Shown here: in pieces, positions 17,044 through 54,598 of the stretch
Numbering within the stretch: position 1 is the stretch's first letter
Layout of the letters: the number at the start of each line of letters is the position of its first letter
Source: Thermoproteota archaeon
GTDB taxonomy: Archaea > Thermoproteota > EX4484-205 > JAAOZP01
DNA: 54,766 nucleotides
Direction: 5' to 3'
Assembly: GCA_049700215.1 (NCBI GenBank)
Contig: JBNAVT010000004.1
Span: 39,587 to 94,352, forward strand
The notes under the pieces: model-generated
Told to the model about the DNA's origin: nothing
The model's input: the letters and a program-made list of their open reading frames with translations, nothing else
Databases searched by the model: none
Position numbers and translations under genes: made by a program

Positions 17044-17053
17044 AGCGCGCGCT
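17044..17053. repeat. A(GC)4T palindrome (putative junction scar)
   Basis: Exact AGCGCGCGCT, intergenic. Confidence 0.8.
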
Positions 17054-28670: not shown

Positions 28671-30518
28671 ATGCCCCAAGTAAGGATTCAGCCCGAAGGC
28701 ATTAGGGTTCAAGCTTCTCACGGATCGAACCTATTAGCTGTGCTCAAGGAAGCAGGTGTTAACATAGAGAGTGTCTGCGGAGGACGCGGGGTTTGTAAAA
28801 AATGCGTAGTGGAGGTTGTAAGCGACGGGTTGACTGAGCCCACGTCTGCAGAGGCAGAGCTGGGAAGACTGTCTAAATCTTTCAGACTGGCCTGCCAGGC
28901 GAGAATCATAGGCGACGTTACAGTTAAAATTCCCCAGGCCTCCAGACAGGCTAGGGGCAAGATACTGGAATGGGGGCTCGTTAAGGATTTTGAGTTCTCC
29001 CCTCTAACGAGAAGCGTGAAAGTAAAGATAGACGCGCCCTCGCTCAGCGACCAGAGGTCTGATGCTGAACGCCTCATGCAGGCGGTAAATGCGAAATCGA
29101 TCGACGGCTTGCTTCTTAAAAAGCTGCCGGGCAGGCTGCGTGAATCAAAATGGGATTTTGAGACAATCGTCAATGAGGATGAAGTCCTAGACGTTAGACC
29201 ACGACACGACTGGGATTTTTACGGGGTTGCTGTCGACGTCGGCACCACTACTGTTGTCGCCTACCTCGTCAACCTGAAAACCGGGCGAGTTGCCTCCGTT
29301 AAGTCGGATTACAACGGTCAGATCGCGCATGGTGACGACGTGATATCGAGAATAACCTACGCTGTGAAAGGAAGCGAGAACCTAGAGGAGCTTCAAAGTA
29401 AAGTCGTGGCGACTATAAACAAGCTGATTCAAGACGCGGTTGACGAGGCCCGGTGCTCCCCCTCCGATGTTTACGAAGTAGCCTTCGCCGGAAACACTGT
29501 GATGACCAGCCTCCTATACGGGGCGGAGGTTTCAGCAATAGCTACGGCACCCTACGTGCCGCCCTTTAGATCCAGCCTCCGCTTCAAGGCTAGGGAGATA
29601 GGCCTTAAGGTAAACGATTCCGCAACATGCTACACTTTCCCCTTGATCAGCGGCTATGTCGGCGGAGATGTGGTTGCAGACATACTTGTTTCAGGAATGC
29701 ATAAGCAAGATGAGAAATCACTGCTTATAGACCTTGGAACCAATGGTGAAGTAGTCCTGAAAGCGGGAGACCTGATGCTCGCCAGCTCAACTGCAGCTGG
29801 ACCAGCTATCGAGGGAGCTGGCCTCTCAAACGGCATGAGAGGGATGACCGGTGCGATAGAATCGGTTTCCATCAACATGGAGACCTTCGACGTTTACTAT
29901 AAGACGATAGGCGACACGGATCCGAGAGGAATATGCGGATCCGGGGTTGTTGATGCAGTAGCGTGGATGCTTATAGCCGGAGCTTTAGACCAGAATGGGA
30001 GGATCGCCGACTTAAACACTCCAAGGATAATGAACGCCAACGGGAATAAGGCTTTCATCTTAGCAGTCAACAGTGAAGGCAGAAGAATCTGCATAACGCA
30101 GTCAGACATCAGGAGTTTTCAACTCGCAAAGGCGGCAATATTTACCGCGTGCTTGCTCCTCCTAAGGATTGCTCAAGTAAGCTTGAGCGAAATATCGAAA
30201 GTATACATTGCAGGAGCATTTGGAAACTATATTGACCCCAGATCCGCTATGATAGTCGGCATGATCCCTGAGCTTCCTTTGAGCAAGATTGTGCAGATAG
30301 GAAATGGTTCGGGCCAAGGTGCAGTAATGAGCCTTCTTTCGAGAAATGTGAGGGAGGAAGCTGAGGTTGTGGCAAGGAAGGTGAAGGCAATCGACCTAAA
30401 CACGATTCACGAGTTTCAAAAAGAATTTATTGATGCCACGCAATTCCCCCATAAAAGAATAGACATGTTTCCAAGGGTGATGAACGCTATAAGGAGGAAA
30501 ACACCTTTATTGGATTAA
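28671..30518 (+). CDS. ATP-dependent reductive activator of corrinoid proteins (RACo/RamA-type, ASKHA, N-terminal 2Fe-2S)
   Basis: CGGRGVCKKC...RLACQA, VDVGTTT, IDLGTNGE, GICGSG, AGAFG. Confidence 0.92.
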   Translation: MPQVRIQPEGIRVQASHGSNLLAVLKEAGVNIESVCGGRGVCKKCVVEVVSDGLTEPTSAEAELGRLSKSFRLACQARIIGDVTVKIPQASRQARGKILEWGLVKDFEFSPLTRSVKVKIDAPSLSDQRSDAERLMQAVNAKSIDGLLLKKLPGRLRESKWDFETIVNEDEVLDVRPRHDWDFYGVAVDVGTTTVVAYLVNLKTGRVASVKSDYNGQIAHGDDVISRITYAVKGSENLEELQSKVVATINKLIQDAVDEARCSPSDVYEVAFAGNTVMTSLLYGAEVSAIATAPYVPPFRSSLRFKAREIGLKVNDSATCYTFPLISGYVGGDVVADILVSGMHKQDEKSLLIDLGTNGEVVLKAGDLMLASSTAAGPAIEGAGLSNGMRGMTGAIESVSINMETFDVYYKTIGDTDPRGICGSGVVDAVAWMLIAGALDQNGRIADLNTPRIMNANGNKAFILAVNSEGRRICITQSDIRSFQLAKAAIFTACLLLLRIAQVSLSEISKVYIAGAFGNYIDPRSAMIVGMIPELPLSKIVQIGNGSGQGAVMSLLSRNVREEAEVVARKVKAIDLNTIHEFQKEFIDATQFPHKRIDMFPRVMNAIRRKTPLLD

Positions 30519-31885
30519 GGCCAGTAATCCCTTTCCCTAAAAGTTGGCACCTTCCCGCTGAAAAACCTACACATTTGTTCCCTGAAGGGTTCCTCATCCT
30601 CCGGGAGAGAGTTAATCACGTTTTCAACATGAGATAGAAATCGACGCTCAGGAGGGCTTAGATGCAGGCGTTGAGAATCCTTCATGAGTTCAACTATTTT
30701 TCGACACGCAGCCTTAGCTCTCCTATAGTAACAGGTATTTTCGGAAACTATCGAATTGGCTATTTCGACAGCCACATCGGGAGAAAGTACGAAAGCCTGA
30801 GGATCGTCGAATTTGTCGGATAAAACAAGAATGTCCCGGAGCTCTCGTGCTTTTCCAAGCTCTATAGCTTTATTCATAAGCTTACAGTCGTAGTGAAGTA
30901 TCTCTAGGAAAACCTGAGGCGCCGACCCTCCGAAAAGCCGAATGTTTTCAACCTGTTCATTAGACCAAAGGTCACAGGAGGCGGAAGCAATATTCCCAAT
31001 TAAGCTTGAGTGTGCACATGCACTGGTCTTACCTTCCATCGCCATCGGAAAACCAGTTATAGCCTTAATAATCACATTCTCGTAGCCGCAATCCTTCCCG
31101 GGGCCCGTTGCTCCCTCCTCGTAGGCGACCAGCGACCTGCATGCTGAAACTGCCCTCACGATTGCGGCAAGCGTATGAGGCAACGAAGTTGATTGGACTC
31201 CACCCGCAAGCTTCATTGCAGTGTTTGCAGTTGCACAAGCAGTGTCACCGCCTGCTATACAACCGTTTCTCTTAGCGATGTTAACGATATCCTTCCAAAG
31301 AGGTTTCATATCAAGGGAACCCAGTAGACCCACTGAAAAAAGTATTCCCTTGACATCCTGCCTAATGACACTGTGATTAAAAACATCCTTACCCCCTTCT
31401 GACTCTATCGAGAGAACATCGGCACCGTTAGAGGAGACGGCCTCAAATGTCTCCATTATAAGATCATGGTTTGAAGTCGACCTTAGGCCCTCTCGGAAAT
31501 CCCTTATGTCTGCGACAGTAATCCTTAGACCGGTTTTTAAACCATGCTCGCCAAAGTATTTCTCCATAAGTGATTTCTGAAGGTTTGTTATTTCCGCTGC
31601 AAGCTTAGGTTTGCTCGTCTCCATGAAGGTCAGCTCGGTCTCTATCTGGAGTGACGTAACGCCGAGTTCAACAGCCCTATCGAGAATCTCTCTTGTTATC
31701 GTTTGCATTTCCACTTTAAACCCGGTAGGATCCTTATCAGACAGAGTCCTGGGGAAAAATTTCACTTCAGGAATTACTTCACCCTGCCCAACTTTGAGCC
31801 CGAAGCCATAGTTCAAAGGATGCTTAGCCAAACCGAAGACTAGTTCCGAAGGGTCATTCACCTCTAGGCTACTGAACGAGGGCAT
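30515..31885 (-). CDS. mtaB: Methanol:corrinoid methyltransferase MtaB family
   Basis: SIESEGGK, GDTAC.ANTA, GPGKDCGYEN, MEGKTSACAHS, WSNE, DPQA; the Glu/Cys/Cys zinc ligands appear retained; 4-nt convergent overlap with the activator gene. Confidence 0.92.
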   Translation of the reverse strand: MPSFSSLEVNDPSELVFGLAKHPLNYGFGLKVGQGEVIPEVKFFPRTLSDKDPTGFKVEMQTITREILDRAVELGVTSLQIETELTFMETSKPKLAAEITNLQKSLMEKYFGEHGLKTGLRITVADIRDFREGLRSTSNHDLIMETFEAVSSNGADVLSIESEGGKDVFNHSVIRQDVKGILFSVGLLGSLDMKPLWKDIVNIAKRNGCIAGGDTACATANTAMKLAGGVQSTSLPHTLAAIVRAVSACRSLVAYEEGATGPGKDCGYENVIIKAITGFPMAMEGKTSACAHSSLIGNIASASCDLWSNEQVENIRLFGGSAPQVFLEILHYDCKLMNKAIELGKARELRDILVLSDKFDDPQAFVLSPDVAVEIANSIVSENTCYYRRAKAACRKIVELMKDSQRLHLSPPERRFLSHVENVINSLPEDEEPFREQMCRFFSGKVPTFRERDYWP

Positions 31886-32093
31886 TTTCCAACCGAACGA
31901 TTTATGGCCTTTTTAAATCTTGCGGAGAAGGCTTACTAACTTTCCCCACGCACTATAAGAGACTCTGAAGAAGGAAAGAATTTTAAACCATTTTGCTTCC
32001 CGGTCCACGATATTTGAAGCCGAGCACACGCTTAGCGTATAACAATAGAAACCTCTATGATAACCATAAGCTCCATTTAGAATATTGTTTTAC

Positions 32094-32543
32094 TCAAACA
32101 TTGTCTTCTAGAGAGAAGACGATCCTTCCTCGCTTTCTCGATCTAAAGATTCTCTCTCTTTCATCATAGAAAATTCCATGTTTTTCCGCCTCATCGAGAA
32201 TTTTCTTAAAGATGTCCCTCACATTCGCAACATCATAGGCGAAGATGGCATCCCTAACCATGTTCAGCGTCTGCCAGCTTGGAACTTTTCTCAAACTCCT
32301 TATATCGTACACGAGAACTGTTGTATCTCTTCCAAATTTTCCCCTCAGCTTGCTAAATGCATAATAAAACTTATCCTGCTCCTTAATTTCCAGCTCTTTC
32401 TCAGTAATGATAAAGATGTCGATGTCGCTTCTCTCATTAAAATCCCCCCTTGCTAAGGAGCCAAATAGCCCAGCAGCTAAAACATCTTTCTTCCCTAAAT
32501 CCTCTAAAATCCTTTTTATTTCGCTTAATATCTTTTCAATCAT
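32094..32543 (-). CDS. Minimal nucleotidyltransferase (MNT antitoxin)
   Basis: LFGSLARGD...SDIDI; ATGA overlap with the HEPN stop. Confidence 0.9.
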   Translation of the reverse strand: MIEKILSEIKRILEDLGKKDVLAAGLFGSLARGDFNERSDIDIFIITEKELEIKEQDKFYYAFSKLRGKFGRDTTVLVYDIRSLRKVPSWQTLNMVRDAIFAYDVANVRDIFKKILDEAEKHGIFYDERERIFRSRKRGRIVFSLEDNV

Positions 32544-32962
32544 CTCCAAAACCTCTCGATGAATTCCCTTGCTTCCTTTACGGATTCCTCTGCCTTTCTA
32601 AGCAATTGCACAGCATCCTCCTCCCTGCACAACTCTGAAGGGCTCATCCACAGCCCATTCTTCAACCCTCCGTATGTTGAACGGCCATGCCATGGCGCTG
32701 CCTCCTTAGCATAAGTTGCAATCTTTAACATTTCCTCCTCCAGAAGCCCCCTCCTGACCAGCTTCGTCAGCTGCTCAGATGGATCATGAGTCCATTCATA
32801 GGCTTCAAAACATGAAACTATAGCTTTTGCAGATTTTTCGATTGCCAGCTGTGAATAATGAATGACTGTAACCCAGTCATCAAACTCCTTATATCTCTCA
32901 GCCCTTTCAAAGTCCTCCTCTGCCTCTCTCAGCAGCCTCAATGATTCCTCCTTGTTGTCCAT
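32540..32962 (-). CDS. HEPN-domain protein (HEPN-MNT toxin-antitoxin)
   Basis: A.EDF..A, SQLAIEKSAKA, THD, RSTY, EDA...L..AEE; SD GGTGAG before ATG 32962. Confidence 0.9.
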   Translation of the reverse strand: MDNKEESLRLLREAEEDFERAERYKEFDDWVTVIHYSQLAIEKSAKAIVSCFEAYEWTHDPSEQLTKLVRRGLLEEEMLKIATYAKEAAPWHGRSTYGGLKNGLWMSPSELCREEDAVQLLRKAEESVKEAREFIERFWR

Positions 32963-33254
32963 GGATCTCACCTTTTTAGTAAACCTTTAAGAGTTAAATC
33001 CTTTATAAGCTTTTTATCAAATCGGATTGCCATTTCTTTCTTCTACTTATAACAGTAAGTTTTTCCTTAGCTTTTAAGAAACAGGAAATATTTCTTTATT
33101 CCAATTTTTTAAACCCCAGCTCTCTTCCTTCGTCCATGGAGCTGAACGATAGCAATTTTTGCCTCTACCACTAAACTTCCTTCCAGCGTGCTAGGCCAGA
33201 TTTTTAAGCCTTTAGTCGAAACCGACATTCACCTGCCTAAAGACAAGACGCACT

Positions 33255-33383
33255 CTAAAAACCGGATGTTTTCAGCTCAGCCCAATGGCCAGACCCCCTA
33301 GGATCCATAATGCGTACATCCAATGGCTCCTCTAAATTGTCGCCGATTTCGTCGATGAACAGGTTCTTGCCCTCCGATACTTC
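33255..33383 (-). pseudogene. Start-less gene fragment with a Walker-B-like motif (possible AAA+ ATPase remnant)
   Basis: EVSEGKNLFIDEIGD begins right after the A(GC)5T junction. Confidence 0.35.
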
Positions 33384-33395
33384 AGCGCGCGCGCT
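33384..33395. repeat. A(GC)5T palindrome (putative junction scar)
   Basis: Exact AGCGCGCGCGCT between two unrelated coding fragments. Confidence 0.85.
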
Positions 33396-33616
33396 AAAGG
33401 CCTCCTTGTTCTCCTTCATGAACTGGGCGGCGATCATGTGGCCGGCGACAGCCTCGTCATACCTCAGGCTAATCCCGCTGAGGCTGCGTATTACTCCGAC
33501 AGCATCCCCGTATTCCCTCAGGCTCTGGGTTGGCACCCATCTCACGGTTTCACCAGCCTCATCCGTCGTTTTAGCGAAGGAATATTTGTCGCCAGTGATG
33601 CTTTCTAAGGCTTCTT
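33396..33616 (-). pseudogene. Internal fragment of an unknown gene bounded by two A(GC)nT motifs
   Basis: Open frame EALESITGDK...QFMKENKEAF spans the whole insert, with no native-looking start or stop. Confidence 0.5.
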
Positions 33617-33626
33617 AGCGCGCGCT
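33617..33626. repeat. A(GC)4T palindrome (putative junction scar)
   Basis: Exact AGCGCGCGCT; reading frame changes across it. Confidence 0.85.
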
Positions 33627-33827
33627 GGCGTAAACAGCCTCGTAGAATCTCAAAGGAGAATTGAAAGACTACCTCAATATCGCTTACCGTTTTGGTCTTT
33701 TTAGCGCACGCATCCACGTAGAGAATGTTGCCGTTTACTGAAACAGGTGCCTCAGTCACAAAACCATAGCCACGCTCATGCAGTATTCTCCCTATTAAAG
33801 CCTTGACTATGAAGTGCTTAACAGACT
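33627..33827 (-). pseudogene. Fragment of a PD-(D/E)XK-like nuclease gene bounded by GC-repeat motifs
   Basis: Open frame ESVKHFIVKALIGRILHERGYGFVTEAPV...YVDACAKK...DIEV (H..K/G..TE/D/E pattern) spans the insert. Confidence 0.5.
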
Positions 33828-33835
33828 CGCGCGCT
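33828..33835. repeat. CGCGCGCT partial A(GC)nT motif
   Basis: Outer boundary of the fragment series. Confidence 0.65.
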
Positions 33836-33957
33836 CGGCGATTACATTATTCTGTCTTAAACAGGCATTTAAGTATATAAACTTTCCATAAAACGAAAAG
33901 ACAATAGGTCAAGGGGAAGAGAGTAAGCCCGAAGGCATTACATTCAGGACCGCATGC

Positions 33958-34605
33958 TTATTTCTTGCCTACCCAAGCCTTGCAAATGTCGACTCCAACC
34001 ACAGCATCCTTCCCATAGCCATCGGCACCTATCCTCTTAGCATAGTCCTCCGTTATCGGAGCCCCGCCTATTATTACTTTAACCTTGTCCCGCAAGCCAG
34101 CTTTCCTAAGCTCGTTTATCACATTCTCCATCTCAACCATTGTGACAGTTAGAAGCGCCGACATGCCAACTATATCAGGCTTATGATTCCTGACAGCCTC
34201 CACAAATGCTTCAGCCGGAACATCGTTACCCAGGTCTATGACTTCGAAGCCAGCAGCCTCCATCATCATCCCGAAAATATTCTTCCCAATATCATGCAGG
34301 TCGCCTTTGACCGTACCTATTACAACCTTGCCTATCTTTTTGATCTCTGAGCCCTTCATATATGGCTGTAGCATTTGGGATATTTCTTTGCCTATTTCGC
34401 CTGCCACTATTAACTCTGACAGGAAGTATTCCGAAGCCTCGAACTTTTTCCCAACCTCCTCCATGGCAGAGCTTATCGCTTTAGTTATTATCTCATTAGG
34501 CGGTATTCCTTTCGAAACGGCTTCTTCCGCCAAGCGTTTAGAGCCGTCGAAATCCAGGTTAACTATAGCATCCTTAAGCCTCGTAAGCAGACTTACCTCA
34601 GACAT
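33958..34605 (-). CDS. mtaC: Corrinoid (cobalamin-binding) protein, MtaC/MttC family
   Basis: Cap domain MEEVGKKFE..EYFLSEL, GTVKGDLHDIGKN, SALLT, IGGAP, IGADGY. Confidence 0.9.
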   Translation of the reverse strand: MSEVSLLTRLKDAIVNLDFDGSKRLAEEAVSKGIPPNEIITKAISSAMEEVGKKFEASEYFLSELIVAGEIGKEISQMLQPYMKGSEIKKIGKVVIGTVKGDLHDIGKNIFGMMMEAAGFEVIDLGNDVPAEAFVEAVRNHKPDIVGMSALLTVTMVEMENVINELRKAGLRDKVKVIIGGAPITEDYAKRIGADGYGKDAVVGVDICKAWVGKK

Positions 34606-34743
34606 GTTTCTTCAAGGCTGGCATAAGCTTCTTATTGATAAATCTTTCGCTTCACGGAGCGCGTGCTCTCCTAATCTTCGAAAAATGTAAGATTTTTATA
34701 CTTGTTTGAAACTCCCCCGAAGCGGTGTAAGAGGTTGGAAAAA

Positions 34744-50000: not shown

Positions 50001-50177
50001 AGGAATAGCCTAGTCTTAACCAAGATCCCGAGTGAAGAATACTACAGGGTTAAACTAGTCACTGAGCCAACATCCCCCGGGATTCCGGAGAACATGATAG
50101 ACAGAACAGTAGACTATGTCCACTGGATCCTTATGCTCTGGGTTAAGGAGAAGAAGAGGATAATGGGCACGGCTTAA
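47082..50177 (+). CDS. Large FtsX/MacB-like permease family membrane protein
   Basis: N-terminal signal/TM, prealbumin-like domain, TM bundle, extracellular domain, SVYEREREIRILSTLGLNP..I..MF.AEA FtsX motif. Confidence 0.85.
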   Translation: MKYWGNSKTILTIPVLALTLLTLPLETIFTDWHNIDGKQAFFQTGMVIDAAASPAVSMRVKVLNALTGEAIPNATLIILDLKNPRRPEVGQSIFFTNADGEYNVPEEIVKPGRIYWVYAYKGNLKEKKIDFVPVKKEIRVGETGSIEVNLSLVPGALVELESVPYIVQASSLQEGNMIIKVIVKQKGFNFSLITDYGDAIDVFYLGLDRKMIPVPSETPFDLEVSVSLVLRERERVSEIFYIMNGTQPFIMPQRSYASVKISEYSLRRGLEYVKSALVGVSSKVDEAQEIGFTVFEERRTLEHANQKLVEANTLLSNAQTEEDFEKTWFTLREILGEINFVATMIESKYLVGKTNAVYLSAVIVVFSTVLAFFFFEKTRLKIVSLAVIYVALLGIMYFINPGTHVVIDENLPLFSWTAAVSFIITSTIVFGIPRIWKERNIEGEVQWRSAISVIFSMSKRQIKRKKIRGFFTIFSICMLILAFTALTTFGTAFGIISKRVEGTPSSDGFLIKRMVNSSSLIFSPLGAGDAEVLLKIAPAINVAPRMKNVPRYDPVARLVNPATGNSYPIYGVLAISPGNETLYTMLDEMVEGSYLSDEAYGGAILGFGTLNRLGLKVGSNATLEIPGTTITETIVVKGFIRDEEYERLTDVDGSPLGPARLLQDGSVRRCNGSEVIVINLETAKRIQEKINSLYGANAPQLVVPSEILFRLRDPEDAGAVVRSIIFFFNYDVFVSSKGVVNYYYIGSYIEFGGAAELLIPLVMVVLSIGMVMVNSVYEREREIRILSTLGLNPTHIGLMFVAEAIIMGMVGGSIGYLTGLGFYRTMVFIGQNLLENLMVREKLEWWWSALGFVFAVAVSVFSAARPAALAIRTYTPSMVKRVRRTEEQRKERKEKIFRVYQARSVSMPVKILANEKDFFTGFLIDHLNQLRTGYKERIENVEDIPEAVDSKGVATKTIRFNYYFGPMEHKNGTRNSLVLTKIPSEEYYRVKLVTEPTSPGIPENMIDRTVDYVHWILMLWVKEKKRIMGTA

Positions 50178-50186
50178 GCGCGCGCT
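50177..50186. repeat. A(GC)4T palindrome overlapping the stop codon of the permease gene
   Basis: TAAGCGCGCGCTT; perfect 12-bp palindrome at 50176-50187. Confidence 0.8.
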
Positions 50187-50288: not shown

Positions 50289-51766
50289 GTGGACGCTGGA
50301 GCACCATACATCCTTGGTATCGACCTCGGAACCTCAGCATGCAAGACGGTCGTCTTCACTTTAGACGGCAGGAGGGTTTCATCCGCCTCCAGGGAATATC
50401 CTGTTATTCAGCCTCAGCCAAGGTGGGCTGAGCAGAATCCTCTAGACTGGTGGAGAGCAGTGGTTGAAACCATAAGGGAAAGCCTCTGGAGAGCAGGGGT
50501 AGAGGGCAGCCAGATAGTTGGCCTAGCCGTTGACTCTCAGCGGGAGGCTGTAGCGCGCGCGCTACTGAGGCGCAGACTGAGAAGATGAGGAGCCTGCTGG
50601 ACGAGGAAACTGTTCTCCGCACGACGGGCGTTGGGATAAACCAGGTTTTCTCAGCATCGAAAATCCTCTGGCTTAAGGAAAACCTTCCAAACGTGTTTTC
50701 AAGGACCAGAGTATTCCTCTGCGCGAAGGACTTCATTATCTACAGGCTGACTGGGGAGAAAGTCACAGACTACTCTATAGCGTCGAGAACAATGCTGTTC
50801 GACATAAGGAGAAAAACATGGTCACCAGAAATATGCTCAGCCCTCAGCATACCTGTAGACAAGCTCCCACAACCCCGGGAATCCAGCATTATCGTTGGAG
50901 AAGTCTCCCACCAGGCCTCAGCTGAAACATCCCTACCTAGAGGCTTGCCAGTTGTAAACGGCGGGGGCGACAGGCCCTGCGAGTGTCTGGGAGCAGGAGT
51001 GGTTAAGGAGGGCTCAGTCAATATAGGGACTGGCACAGGTTCCACTTTCGAAGCCCCGTTGAGCAAGCCAAACCCTGATTTGAAGGGAAGGGTTAACTGT
51101 TGCTGCCACGTGATCCCAGGCACATGGGAGTATGAAGCATCCATCTCGACAACAGGCGGAGCCCTACGCTGGTTCAAGGATGTTTTCGGGGAAAGGGAGG
51201 TGGAGGAGGCGGAGAAAACGGGTAGAGACCCTTACGATTTAATAACTCAAACCGCTTCTGAAACAAGCCCGGGTGCAGACGGTCTTTTCTTCTACCCTTA
51301 TTTAGCAGGTGCTTTCCCACCCAGAGTGGACGGTAGGGCGCGCGCCGTTTTCTTCGGCATCAGCCTATTCCACTCTAAGGGCCACTTCGCCAGAGCCATA
51401 TTGGAAGGAGTGGCCTTCCACTATCTTGTGATGCTTAAACTCCTGAAGGAGCTTGGCGTAGAAATAGCTGAAGCAAGCATAGTTGGAGGCGAGGCAAAGA
51501 GCGATTTCTGGAACCAGGTTAAGGCAGACGTAACCGGTATAAGAATAAGGATCCCTGAGGTTGAGGACGCTGCCGCAATGGGGTCAGCCCTACTCGCAGG
51601 CATCGGCACAGGCCAGTATACGAGTGTACAGAAGGCTGTTGAATCAACGGTGAGAACAAGGAGGGTATACGTGCCTAACGCTGAGAACCACTCGGCTTAC
51701 TTGAAGCTGTACGAGAAATACGAAGCAATATACGCGTTGATCTCGAAGGGATATGATGTTTACTAG
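50289..51766 (+). pseudogene. FGGY-family carbohydrate kinase (xylulokinase-like) disrupted by an internal deletion and frameshift at about 50552
   Basis: ORF 50289-50588 has ILGIDLGTS.CK...AEQNP..WW...DSQRE; ORF 50585-51766 continues SKILWLKE, GGGD, GTG, RAILEG, GGEAKS; the conserved D..G.P....I.W.D.R segment is missing. Confidence 0.88.
50550..50565. repeat. Perfect 16-bp palindrome GTAGCGCGCGCGCTAC (core A(GC)5T) at the deletion junction
   Basis: Sits exactly where kinase similarity breaks and the frame shifts. Confidence 0.9.
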
Positions 51767-54588: not shown

Positions 54589-54598
54589 TGTTTCCGAG

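What the first reader, a model, noticed from the sequence alone, without database searches (positions are those of the whole stretch)
33185..33835. Three unrelated ~200-bp gene fragments joined by GC palindromes
SEEN: motifs at 33185 (AGCGTGCT, decayed), 33384, 33617 and 33828, spaced 199, 233 and 211 bp apart. The inserts read as minus-strand protein fragments without native starts: a PD-(D/E)XK-like piece (ESVKHFIVK...GYGFVTE...VD...IEV), an unknown piece, and a piece with Walker-B-like LFIDEIGD. Two inserts are open frames edge to edge. INFERENCE: either (a) the remains of an integrated virus/plasmid reduced by serial scarred deletions, which the co-orientation favours, or (b) capture and concatenation of foreign DNA pieces of similar size, a primitive spacer-like archive, lying next to an HEPN-MNT module.
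Basis: partly seen in the sequence, partly recalled or inferred. Interest (0 to 1): 0.8.

Follow-up and report, generated by a model that had tools for sequence, protein, structure and literature searches.

The report
Deletion scars marked by GC palindromes
This stretch is the wreck of an inserted gene island whose leftover pieces are stitched together by a short GC palindrome, which this hot-spring archaeal lineage leaves wherever it has lost DNA; I found no description of such a scar.

Summary
The three palindromes are real: A(GC)5T at 33384, A(GC)4T at 33617 and CGCGCGCT at 33828. A fourth, decayed copy lies at 33703. "Three unrelated fragments" is only partly right.

- Inserts 1 and 2 are one collinear 316-bp remnant (residues 287-391) of a 477-aa ORFan gene. 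That gene is intact at the same place in a sister species, and the remnant reads through the 33384 palindrome.
- Insert 3 is two scraps: 76 bp of a CRISPR array (one exact repeat) and 118 bp of a 129-aa nuclease-fold gene.
- All lie in a 2,072-bp insertion, which also holds the HEPN-MNT pair, between mtaB and mtaC. These two genes are adjacent in 4 of 7 relatives' loci.

The palindrome is genome-wide. AGCGCGCGCT occurs 118 times in 2.09 Mb, against 1 for the reversed control. It is mostly intergenic, has no conserved flanks, and is found in only some species of the genus and in two other families. In 11 of 11 junctions that I could polarise against relatives, native DNA (about 16 bp to 2.1 kb) is replaced by the palindrome, and the relatives carry no palindrome there. 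It breaks cas1 and an FGGY kinase gene.

So reading (a), serial scarred deletions, is supported. A spacer-like archive is not, although two scraps look captured. The enzyme is unknown.

The parts
30515..31885 (-). mtaB (methanol-cobalamin methyltransferase B), the native left flank of the insertion
   Evidence: Pfam MtaB, E 1.4e-175. In G006, G009, G011 and G007 it lies 35-45 nt from mtaC.
31886..33957 (.). 2,072-bp lineage-specific insertion between mtaB and mtaC that holds everything below
   Evidence: Missing in 4 of 7 relatives' loci. G008 and G002 carry other insertions with palindromes at the same spot.
32023..32032 (.). Possible decayed scar AGCACACGCT (two transitions from the unit); uncertain
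   Evidence: 2 mismatches. No relative aligns here, so it cannot be told from chance.
32094..32549 (-). MNT-type nucleotidyltransferase (antitoxin-like partner)
   Evidence: Pfam NTP_transf_2, E 6.4e-12. PADLOC PDC-S09, E 6.2e-12.
32540..32971 (-). HEPN-domain protein
   Evidence: Pfam HEPN, E 1.2e-10.
33185..33192 (.). AGCGTGCT, a possible decayed A(GC)3T scar; uncertain
   Evidence: Seen. It is one transition from AGCGCGCT, but there is no comparative support.
33301..33383 (-). Distal part of the remnant of a 477-aa ORFan gene (up to about residue 391)
   Evidence: Aligns to G008:C1 and G002:C2 at 79-81% DNA identity. BLASTP E 2e-48.
33384..33395 (.). Scar AGCGCGCGCGCT inside the gene remnant; it replaces about 20 native nt by 14 (net -6, in frame)
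   Evidence: Alignment A1 against two relatives that carry no palindrome there.
33396..33616 (-). Proximal part of the same gene remnant (from about residue 287)
33617..33626 (.). Scar AGCGCGCGCT at the end of homology to the 477-aa gene
   Evidence: Homology to G008 and G002 stops at the palindrome.
33627..33702 (+). Scrap of a CRISPR array: 15 nt, one 26-nt repeat (33642-33667), then 35 nt
   Evidence: The repeat is 100% identical to the arrays of G008 (C11, C15), which have a period of about 65 bp next to cas1. It is the only copy in G000. Rfam CRISPR-DR45 gives 27 bits, below its gathering score. A repeat-spacer-repeat contig is present in the sample.
33703..33710 (.). Decayed scar AGCGCACG at the junction between the CRISPR scrap and the gene scrap
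   Evidence: Homology to the 129-aa gene starts at 33711, and the assembly graph branches at 33711.
33711..33828 (-). 118-bp internal scrap (39 codons) of a 129-aa gene with a restriction-endonuclease-like fold
   Evidence: 87% DNA identity to G008:C17 and 78% to G005:C9. Identical in protein to P0003. Contigs of an intact copy branch off at both ends.
33829..33835 (.). Scar GCGCGCT (with the native C at 33828 it reads CGCGCGCT) at the other end of the gene scrap
33836..33957 (.). 122 nt of unknown origin up to the mtaC stop codon
   Evidence: No match in relatives.
33958..34605 (-). mtaC-like corrinoid protein, the native right flank
   Evidence: Pfam B12-binding (E 3.2e-31) and B12-binding_2. 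83-87% DNA identity in 7 relatives.
34658..34667 (.). Decayed scar AGCGCGTGCT in the mtaC upstream spacer; about 85 native nt are replaced by about 22
   Evidence: Alignment against G006, G009, G011 and G007.

Best explanation
The stretch is non-functional debris inside a 2,072-bp insertion between mtaB and mtaC. It holds three kinds of piece:
- a 316-bp remnant of a 477-aa ORFan gene;
- a 76-bp scrap of a CRISPR array;
- a 118-bp scrap of a 129-aa nuclease-fold gene.
The pieces are joined by copies of a 10-12 nt palindrome, [T]A(GC)3-5T[A].

Shown: this palindrome is not a repeat element with a body, not a terminator and not a CRISPR-like repeat. In this lineage it is laid down de novo at the joint where native DNA has been lost, and it then decays by transitions. 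It is a scar of breaking and rejoining. The locus records several such events in already useless DNA. At least the 118-bp gene scrap was probably caught from other DNA in the cell, and possibly the CRISPR scrap too.

Inferred, about 35% likely: each broken end independently receives a short self-complementary extension of the type (T)AGCGC. Two such ends pair through their GC tails and are sealed. Any two ends, including loose fragments, can therefore be joined without Ku.
For: Anatomy.
- The remnant is collinear through the 33384 palindrome with the intact gene of G008 and G002.
- Breakpoints of the 129-aa gene scrap fall exactly at the palindromes 33703 and 33828.
- A solitary exact CRISPR repeat lies at 33642-33667.
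- mtaB and mtaC are adjacent in 4 of 7 relatives' loci.
- A second assembly of the sample (Logan contigs of run X1) bridges 33384, 33617 and 33703 in one contig with 0 differences, and 33828 in another.

Genome-wide nature.
- AGCGCGCGCT occurs 118 times against 1 for the reversed control.
- A(GC)kT counts peak sharply at k=4: 53, 118, 33, 2, 2 for k=3 to 7, against 0-14 for control words.
- No conservation is seen beyond two flanking bases.
- 98 of 155 sites are intergenic by crude ORF calling, against 12% of the genome.
- They occur between genes in every orientation: 41, 40, 36, 33.

De novo at deletions. In 11 of 11 junctions that I could polarise, native DNA is lost and the relatives have no palindrome there:
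- L036 476 (45 nt to 8, four relatives);
- L036 680 (about 1.7 kb);
- L036 797 (about 1.5 kb);
- L036 1155 (376 bp);
- L035 934 (2,126 bp);
- window 33384;
- window 50552 (61 nt to 12, four relatives) and window 50177;
- window 34658;
- window 17044 (314 to 46);
- cas1, where HMM positions 74-173 are missing at the palindrome.

Further support.
- 71 of 76 palindromes in 400 kb of G008 lie outside DNA alignable to G000, although 52% of that DNA aligns.
- Native bases often supply part of the palindrome (AGC, ACGC, CG), which is microhomology.
- The two flanks vary independently: 67 complementary pairs against 76 expected.
- One-mismatch variants are mostly transitions, 71 against 37.
- The pattern recurs in independent assemblies of 7 species of the genus, in G142 (30 against 0) and in the one-contig genome G105 (22 against 0).
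Against: - No enzyme is identified. Ku was found in 0 of 31 genomes. Reverse transcriptase was found in 0 of 17. No C5 methylase was found in the palindrome-rich genomes. TnpB does not track the palindrome. The tag-and-join mechanism is therefore inference only.
- The 11 polarised junctions are those I could align, not a random sample. Window 46847 was unalignable, and at 54597, L036 1561, L035 769 and L035 1400 only one side could be mapped.
- A sharply fixed length (k=4) fits a templated or element-derived sequence better than free tailing.
- The CRISPR and 129-aa scraps are not explained by deletion from the island seen in G008. Capture is inferred from one sample's contigs.
- All genomes but one are metagenome bins, and only one sequencing run holds the locus.
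- The motifs at 33185 and 32023 cannot be told from chance.
Confidence: 0.72

Rival explanations
1. The palindrome is the excision footprint of an unassembled cut-and-paste transposon (TA target, ends beginning GCGC). TA + GCGC + GCGC + TA would remain after excision, and the deletions would be by-products of transposition.
For: The consensus TAGCGCGCGCTA reads as a TA duplication around two inverted 4-nt ends. The fixed modal length and the patchy spread over three families suit a mobile agent. Metagenome bins often lose repeated elements. Contig ends are enriched for the motif: 17 of 170 against about 6 expected.
Against: 0 of 11 polarised sites is a simple insertion, and every one has lost native DNA. 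In several the A or T next to the GC run is not native, and deletion end points are not at TA. T at -2 and A at +2 occur in only about half of the sites, and independently. No DDE_3 (IS630-type) transposase was found in 0 of 5 palindrome-rich genomes, including the one-contig G105; DDE_Tnp_1 was found in 2 of 5. A scan for elements with inverted ends starting GCGC gave only chance-level pairs. The repeated families of G000 hold no transposase domain.
Confidence: 0.13
2. The palindrome spreads by copying itself. A broken end with a little GC microhomology primes on an existing copy elsewhere, copies it, and switches back. Alternatively, pre-existing copies recombine with each other and delete what lies between them.
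For: Microhomology is seen at native/palindrome borders. The sequence is fixed. Palindromes cluster. Template switching could also copy neighbouring DNA and so explain caught scraps.
Against: Relatives with the intact DNA have no palindrome at either end of the lost segments. The scraps at 33100-33900 have no second copy in the genome. The source copy of the 118-bp scrap continues natively at both ends, without a palindrome. This model does not explain the first copies.
Confidence: 0.08
3. A primitive spacer-like archive: foreign pieces of similar size are captured on purpose between palindromic repeats.
For: Two pieces (the CRISPR scrap and the 118-bp gene scrap) do look captured, and one matches DNA that co-occurs in the sample. 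The pieces in this locus are 76-316 bp long.
Against: Two of the 'inserts' are one native-order gene remnant. Elsewhere the pieces between palindromes are collinear remnants of chromosomal genes. Spacing is irregular, 36-498 bp. The palindromes decay and break cas1 and a kinase gene. There is no leader and no associated gene set, and no palindrome-flanked unit recurs.
Confidence: 0.03
4. A selected functional motif, such as a terminator or a protein-binding or methylation site, that arose many times at gene borders.
For: It is mostly intergenic, and the 12-mer carries a stop codon on both strands.
Against: It shows no orientation bias, and 36 sites lie between divergent genes. It is not conserved between species, with 2 of 76 sites spanned by homology. 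It decays by transitions, sits inside broken genes and replaces native DNA.
Confidence: 0.02
5. An assembly chimera or other artefact.
For: The locus comes from one metagenome. The assembly graph branches at 33711 and 33828.
Against: Logan contigs bridge every junction, and the depths of the flanks agree with each other (9.75 and 9.97) but not with the side branches (6.1 and 6.7). The same motif at different sites occurs in independent assemblies of many species, including a one-contig genome. It is enriched in intergenic DNA.
Confidence: 0.02

Closest known systems
Excision footprints of cut-and-paste transposons (Tc1/mariner, P element; recalled, no paper read)
   Same: A short, constant, palindromic sequence left at a rejoined site. 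The consensus has TA on both sides.
   Different: Here every polarised case has lost native DNA, the flanks are not a strict TA duplication, and no donor element or matching transposase was found.
Filler DNA and N/P nucleotides at end-joining junctions (eukaryotic NHEJ, V(D)J; recalled)
   Same: Extra bases at a deletion joint, microhomology at the borders, and occasional capture of unrelated DNA fragments.
   Different: Known fillers vary in sequence or are copied from the flanks. Here the filler is one fixed self-complementary word with a sharp length mode, in genomes where Ku was not found.
GC clusters of yeast mitochondrial genomes (PMC4478555, seen as search listing and start of abstract only; further details recalled)
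   Same: GC-rich palindromic units scattered in AT-richer non-coding DNA, lineage-specific in number and linked to rearrangement.
   Different: GC clusters are about 30-50 bp mobile elements that insert. Here the unit is 10-12 nt, has no body, and appears where DNA was removed.
HIP1, the highly iterated palindrome of cyanobacteria (PMC6604393, listing and start of abstract only)
   Same: A short palindrome over-represented by orders of magnitude in certain lineages.
   Different: HIP1 (as I recall) is frequent inside conserved genes. This palindrome avoids conserved DNA, with 71 of 76 copies outside alignable sequence, and marks deletion joints.
CRISPR arrays
   Same: Unrelated short pieces separated by a repeated palindromic word. 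One piece here is itself a scrap of a CRISPR array.
   Different: No regular period, a 10-12 nt unit, no leader and no cas link. The pieces are mostly remnants of native genes.
REP/BIME elements and MITEs
   Same: Dispersed intergenic palindromes.
   Different: No conserved sequence beyond the 10-12 nt, no hairpin loop and no associated Y1 transposase tested. Relatives show loss of DNA, not insertion.

Membership tests
CRISPR array (for the palindrome-separated pieces) | Repeats of about 24-40 nt at a regular period with spacers of similar length | tested here: not met
   The unit is 10-12 nt. Spacings are 233 and 211 bp here and 36-498 bp in other clusters.
CRISPR array (for 33627-33702 only) | Repeat identical to that of a true array next to cas genes | tested here: met
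   26 of 26 nt identical to the G008 arrays, which lie beside cas1. Only one repeat is present here, so it is a scrap and not an array.
Transposon excision footprint | Target-site duplication on both sides of the footprint | tested here: not met
   T at -2 in 117 of 208 sites and A at +2 in 107 of 208. The two sides are independent.
Transposon excision footprint | The empty site in relatives differs only by the footprint, with no loss of native DNA | tested here: not met
   0 of 11 polarised sites.
Transposon excision footprint | A donor element with matching inverted ends and a transposase | tested here: inconclusive
   None was found, but most genomes are bins and only two transposase families plus TnpB were searched.
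REP / MITE | Conserved sequence extending beyond the core palindrome | tested here: not met
   The base profile is flat beyond +/-2 over 264 copies.
Intrinsic terminator | Placed after 3' ends of genes, not between divergent genes | tested here: not met
   36 of 150 intergenic copies lie between divergent genes.
Ku-dependent NHEJ | Ku gene present | tested here: not met
   PF02735 found in 0 of 31 genomes; the control rang in B. subtilis.
PD-(D/E)XK nuclease fold (the 129-aa family of the 33711-33828 scrap) | Restriction-endonuclease-like core fold | tested here: inconclusive
   The model has a mean pLDDT of 63.6. The best Foldseek hits are XisH proteins (E 5.2e-4 and 2.1e-3), followed by R2 endonuclease domains and Cas4-like and other nucleases at weak E-values. 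No Pfam family.
PD-(D/E)XK nuclease fold (129-aa family) | Acidic and Lys/Gln catalytic residues in order (motif recalled) | tested here: inconclusive
   E56 and D69 are invariant, and E79-x-Q81 is conserved in the full-length members. The window scrap ends at D69 and lacks the last motif.
   The 477-aa protein hits 0 Pfam families at E up to 0.1.
HEPN-MNT pair | Adjacent, overlapping HEPN and minimal nucleotidyltransferase genes | tested here: met
   Pfam HEPN and NTP_transf_2; the genes overlap by 10 nt. Toxin-antitoxin activity was not tested.

The most novel reading that the evidence does not exclude
A patchily distributed, probably transferable activity in Ku-less hot-spring archaea 'heals' every free DNA end with a fixed self-complementary GC tag, so that any two ends can pair and be sealed at high temperature. 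This would be a new end-joining route that writes a readable scar at each event. It would drive gene loss (cas1, a kinase, whole gene blocks) and now and then trap loose DNA fragments between scars.
Probability: 0.3. Interest if true: 0.9.

Novelty: new variant of a known kind. Interest (0 to 1): 0.76.

Why it matters
If the scars are what they seem, these genomes carry a dated, countable record of their own deletions: more than 200 in 2 Mb. That is rare material for studying how uncultured thermophilic archaea lose genes.

The scars also serve as a practical flag for pseudogenes that automatic annotation would call as two genes or as short ORFs. Examples are cas1 (G000:C9), the FGGY kinase at window 50289-51766, and the 'ORFs' of this finding.

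The fixed palindrome implies an unknown enzyme or element that joins unrelated DNA ends in cells where Ku was not found. Finding it would add a repair or mobility mechanism to archaeal biology, and possibly a heat-stable joining tool.

For this locus itself the message is sober: it is debris, not a device.

Tried and rejected
- Paralogs of the scraps in the same genome: none.
- Pfam and PHROGs on the window scraps: nothing at a useful level.
- Pfam, PHROGs and PADLOC on the intact 477-, 368-, 202- and 129-aa proteins: nothing beyond one marginal PADLOC hit, E 0.0069.
- Relatives of the 129-aa and 477-aa proteins in viral contigs: no locus returned.
- Genome collection scan with the 477-aa protein: only the two species already known.
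- Literature. The palindrome letters gave primer-type hits only. 'Brockarchaeota' with 'palindrom' gave 2 papers, titles and abstract starts seen, neither about such a motif. 'Deletion junction' with 'palindromic', 'filler' and 'archaea' gave 0 papers. 'Highly iterated palindrome' with 'archaea' gave 5 cyanobacterial or general papers. So I found no description in those libraries; subscription journals are not covered.
- Candidate agents: Ku, C5 methylase (61), reverse transcriptase (62), TnpB (63), IS630-type DDE_3 (91), DDE_Tnp_1 (92) and the 129-aa nuclease-fold gene itself (79). None tracks the palindrome counts.
- TnpB fragments are not especially close to palindromes.
- Scan for inverted-end elements beginning GCGC: chance-level only.
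- Repeated families of G000: no transposase domain.
- The 14-mer form of the palindrome in 2.9 million viral contigs: 36 single hits, and no contig with several.
- Symmetry of flanks beyond the palindrome: none.
- Alternative alleles at contig ends: suggestive enrichment, but no clean deletion allele could be shown.
- Sequencing runs: no RNA holder listed. One DNA run holds the stretch, and run X2 gave no cover.
- Earlier findings of the scan were not open.
Full report
THE OBSERVATION

The window carries AGCGCGCGCGCT at 33384-33395, AGCGCGCGCT at 33617-33626 and CGCGCGCT at 33828-33835, 233 and 211 bp apart. GCGCGC occurs 21 times in the window against 8.63 expected, and 0 of 100 shuffles reach 21. 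The motif at 33185 (AGCGTGCT) exists, but it cannot be told from chance. The minus-strand frames are open as described.

WHAT THE PIECES ARE

A DNA search of 30 relatives, followed by ORF listing, gave three results.

- Window 33301-33616 matches G008:C1 (79%) and G002:C2 (81%). In G008 this lies inside an intact 477-aa gene, about 1.7 kb from the corrinoid gene, so it is syntenic. The window frame matches residues 287-391 (70% identity, E 2e-48), straight through the 33384 palindrome. At that point about 20 native bases are replaced by 14. Inserts 1 and 2 are therefore one gene remnant.
- Window 33642-33667 is identical to the 26-nt repeat of two CRISPR arrays of G008, which have a period of about 65 bp and lie beside cas1. 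It is the only copy in G000. With 15 nt before it and 35 nt after it, it fills the space between the palindromes at 33617 and 33703. Rfam gives only a sub-threshold CRISPR-DR45 hit.
- Window 33711-33828 matches an intact 129-aa gene of G008:C17 (87%) and of G005:C9 (78%). Homology starts and stops exactly at the palindromes. The family has 11 hypothetical proteins from records labelled Thermoproteota, Nitrososphaeria or Candidatus Brockarchaeota. Its model (pLDDT 63.6) resembles XisH and other restriction-endonuclease-fold proteins, but weakly.

The 477-aa protein and its neighbours have no Pfam or PHROG family and only one marginal PADLOC hit. The 'Walker-B' reading therefore has no support.

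THE SETTING

The flanks are mtaB (30515-31885) and an mtaC-like corrinoid gene (33958-34605). In 4 of the 7 relatives' loci that I held (G006, G009, G011, G007) these two genes are 35-45 nt apart. G000 has 2,072 bp between them: the HEPN-MNT pair plus the scraps. G008 and G002 carry other insertions at the same spot, also with palindromes.

Logan contigs of the only run that holds the locus bridge 33384, 33617 and 33703 in one contig without a difference, and 33828 in another. The depths of these two contigs agree (9.75 and 9.97). Side branches at 33711 and 33828 (depth 6.1 and 6.7) run on into an intact 129-aa gene. A low-depth repeat-spacer-repeat contig is also present. The junctions are therefore real. 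The 118-bp scrap is nearly identical to an intact copy elsewhere in the community, which points to recent capture rather than an old remnant.

THE PALINDROME IS GENOME-WIDE

The window's genome (2.09 Mb, 49% GC) has 264 runs of (GC)4 or more. A precedes 197 of them and T follows 194. T at -2 and A at +2 occur in about half. Nothing is conserved further out.

A(GC)kT counts are 53, 118, 33, 2 and 2 for k=3 to 7, against 0-14 for control words. By crude ORF calling, 98 of 155 sites are intergenic and 12 lie at gene edges, while 12% of the genome is intergenic. All four gene orientations are equally served, so these are not terminators. Clusters of three or more number 22, against a mean of 4.3 under uniform placement and 9.0 when the intergenic share is kept. 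One-mismatch variants are mostly transitions, 71 against 37. The two flanks vary independently.

WHERE THE PALINDROME COMES FROM

In G000:C2 (locus L036) five palindromes separate pieces that are collinear with an intact region of about 7.6 kb in G007, G009 and G006. That region holds an archaeal ATPase, a PIN protein, a NosD-like protein and others. The relatives have no palindrome at the corresponding points. In G000, 45 nt are replaced by GCGCGCGC (four relatives are intact), 376 bp by about 10 nt, and about 1.7 and 1.5 kb are lost at two further joints.

The same holds at these sites:
- L035 934, where 2,126 bp are lost;
- window 50552, where 61 nt of an FGGY kinase gene are replaced by 12 nt, four relatives are intact, and the gene now reads as two ORFs;
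- window 50177;
- window 34658;
- window 17044;
- cas1 of G000, which lacks HMM positions 74-173 exactly at one palindrome and ends at another.

Together with 33384 that makes 11 of 11 polarised joints with loss of native DNA and none that is a pure insertion. These were the joints I could align. Window 46847 was unalignable, and at several others only one side could be mapped. Three GC runs without A...T flanks (43243, 45860, 51337) lie inside genes that align end to end, and I did not count them.

Native bases often supply part of the palindrome. In 400 kb of G008, 71 of 76 palindromes lie outside DNA that aligns to G000, although 52% of that DNA aligns. Alignment ends fall within 10 nt of a G000 palindrome 11 times in 245, against 1.2 expected.

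DISTRIBUTION

AGCGCGCGCT counts are 118 (G000), 88, 70, 33, 32, 18 and 16 in seven species of the genus, 0-6 in the other ten, and controls are 0-3. Among 301 genomes of the phylum, two further genomes of other families stand out with clean controls: G142 (30 against 0) and the one-contig G105 (22 against 0). Both show the same A...T flanks and the same clustering. The spread is patchy, which suggests a transferable cause.

MECHANISM

Shown: the palindrome appears at the joint when DNA is lost, its two halves behave independently, it has a fixed modal length, and it then decays.

Not shown: what makes it. Ku (0 of 31 genomes), reverse transcriptase (0 of 17), C5 methylase, TnpB, IS630-type and IS4-type transposases and the 129-aa nuclease-fold gene do not track it. 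No element with matching ends was found, and no virus carries several copies.

My preferred reading, at about 35%, is that each end receives a short self-complementary GC tag and that ends are joined through it. This would also explain caught fragments. A transposon footprint (about 13%) fits the TA-flanked consensus and the patchy spread, but not the universal loss of native DNA. Self-copying by template switching (about 8%) fits the microhomology, but not the palindrome-free ancestral sites.

VERDICT

The finding is real. Its reading (a) is essentially right, and its reading (b) is wrong as a device, although capture does seem to occur. The locus itself is debris. What makes it interesting is the scar. 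I found no description of it in four literature searches. I file it as a new variant of junction footprints and fillers. There is a 30% chance that it marks a new end-joining activity.

Noticed in passing
G000:C9:51-602 (outside the window): cas1 is a wreck. HMM positions 1-73 and 174-277 are fused in one frame at a palindrome (C9:274-283), and the gene ends at another palindrome (C9:592-601). The contig itself starts with a GC run.
   Followed up: yes
window 50289-51766: An FGGY carbohydrate kinase gene is split into a 99-aa and a 393-aa ORF. AGCGCGCGCGCT at 50552 replaces 61 nt that four relatives keep, and FGGY_N positions 83-113 are missing.
   Followed up: yes
window 17044-17053 and 50177-50186: Two more scars just after gene ends. 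At 17044, 314 nt of G009 correspond to 46 nt here. At 50177, about 16 nt after the stop codon are replaced.
   Followed up: yes
G142:C4:27311-28615 (L073, L075) and G105:C1 (22 sites): Genomes of two other families of the phylum carry the same A(GC)4T word, 30 and 22 times with 0 controls, again in clusters (for example four copies within 1.3 kb). G105 is a single contig.
   Followed up: partly
window 33751; run X1: A C/T variant lies inside the 118-bp scrap. An intact copy of the 129-aa gene is present in the same sample at lower depth (about 6-7 against about 10) but not in this genome bin. It may sit on an unbinned replicon.
   Followed up: partly
G008:C15:16424-16449: G008 also has a solitary exact CRISPR repeat about 13 kb from its array, next to DNA that matches a palindrome cluster of G000 (C19).
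   Followed up: no
L007 (G002:C54:38500-42194): In G002 the same mtaC-mtaB spacer holds a different small two-gene cassette that reads like a toxin-antitoxin pair (my reading of the translation, not scanned). It has three palindromes, one of which truncates the second gene.
   Followed up: partly
G000 contig ends: 17 of 170 contig ends have an alternating GC run within 150 nt (about 6 expected), often right after the 55-nt overlap. The assembly graph may branch at scars, which would mean that scars are polymorphic in the population.
   Followed up: partly
G000:C60, C46, C49, C19, C11: There are five TnpB-type zinc-ribbon matches, four of them in short open frames (104-219 aa). They are not notably close to palindromes.
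   Followed up: partly
L012 (G005:C9:11289-11594): The 129-aa gene of G005 has an internal deletion (residues 71-97) without any GC palindrome. G005 has no copy of the 10-mer, so deletions in palindrome-free relatives look ordinary.
   Followed up: partly
L009:189-623 (G008:C1): A T4-endonuclease-V-like pyrimidine dimer glycosylase gene (Pfam Pyr_excise, E 8.2e-18) lies at the far edge of the G008 island, beside MFS-transporter-like fragments flanked by two palindromes.
   Followed up: no
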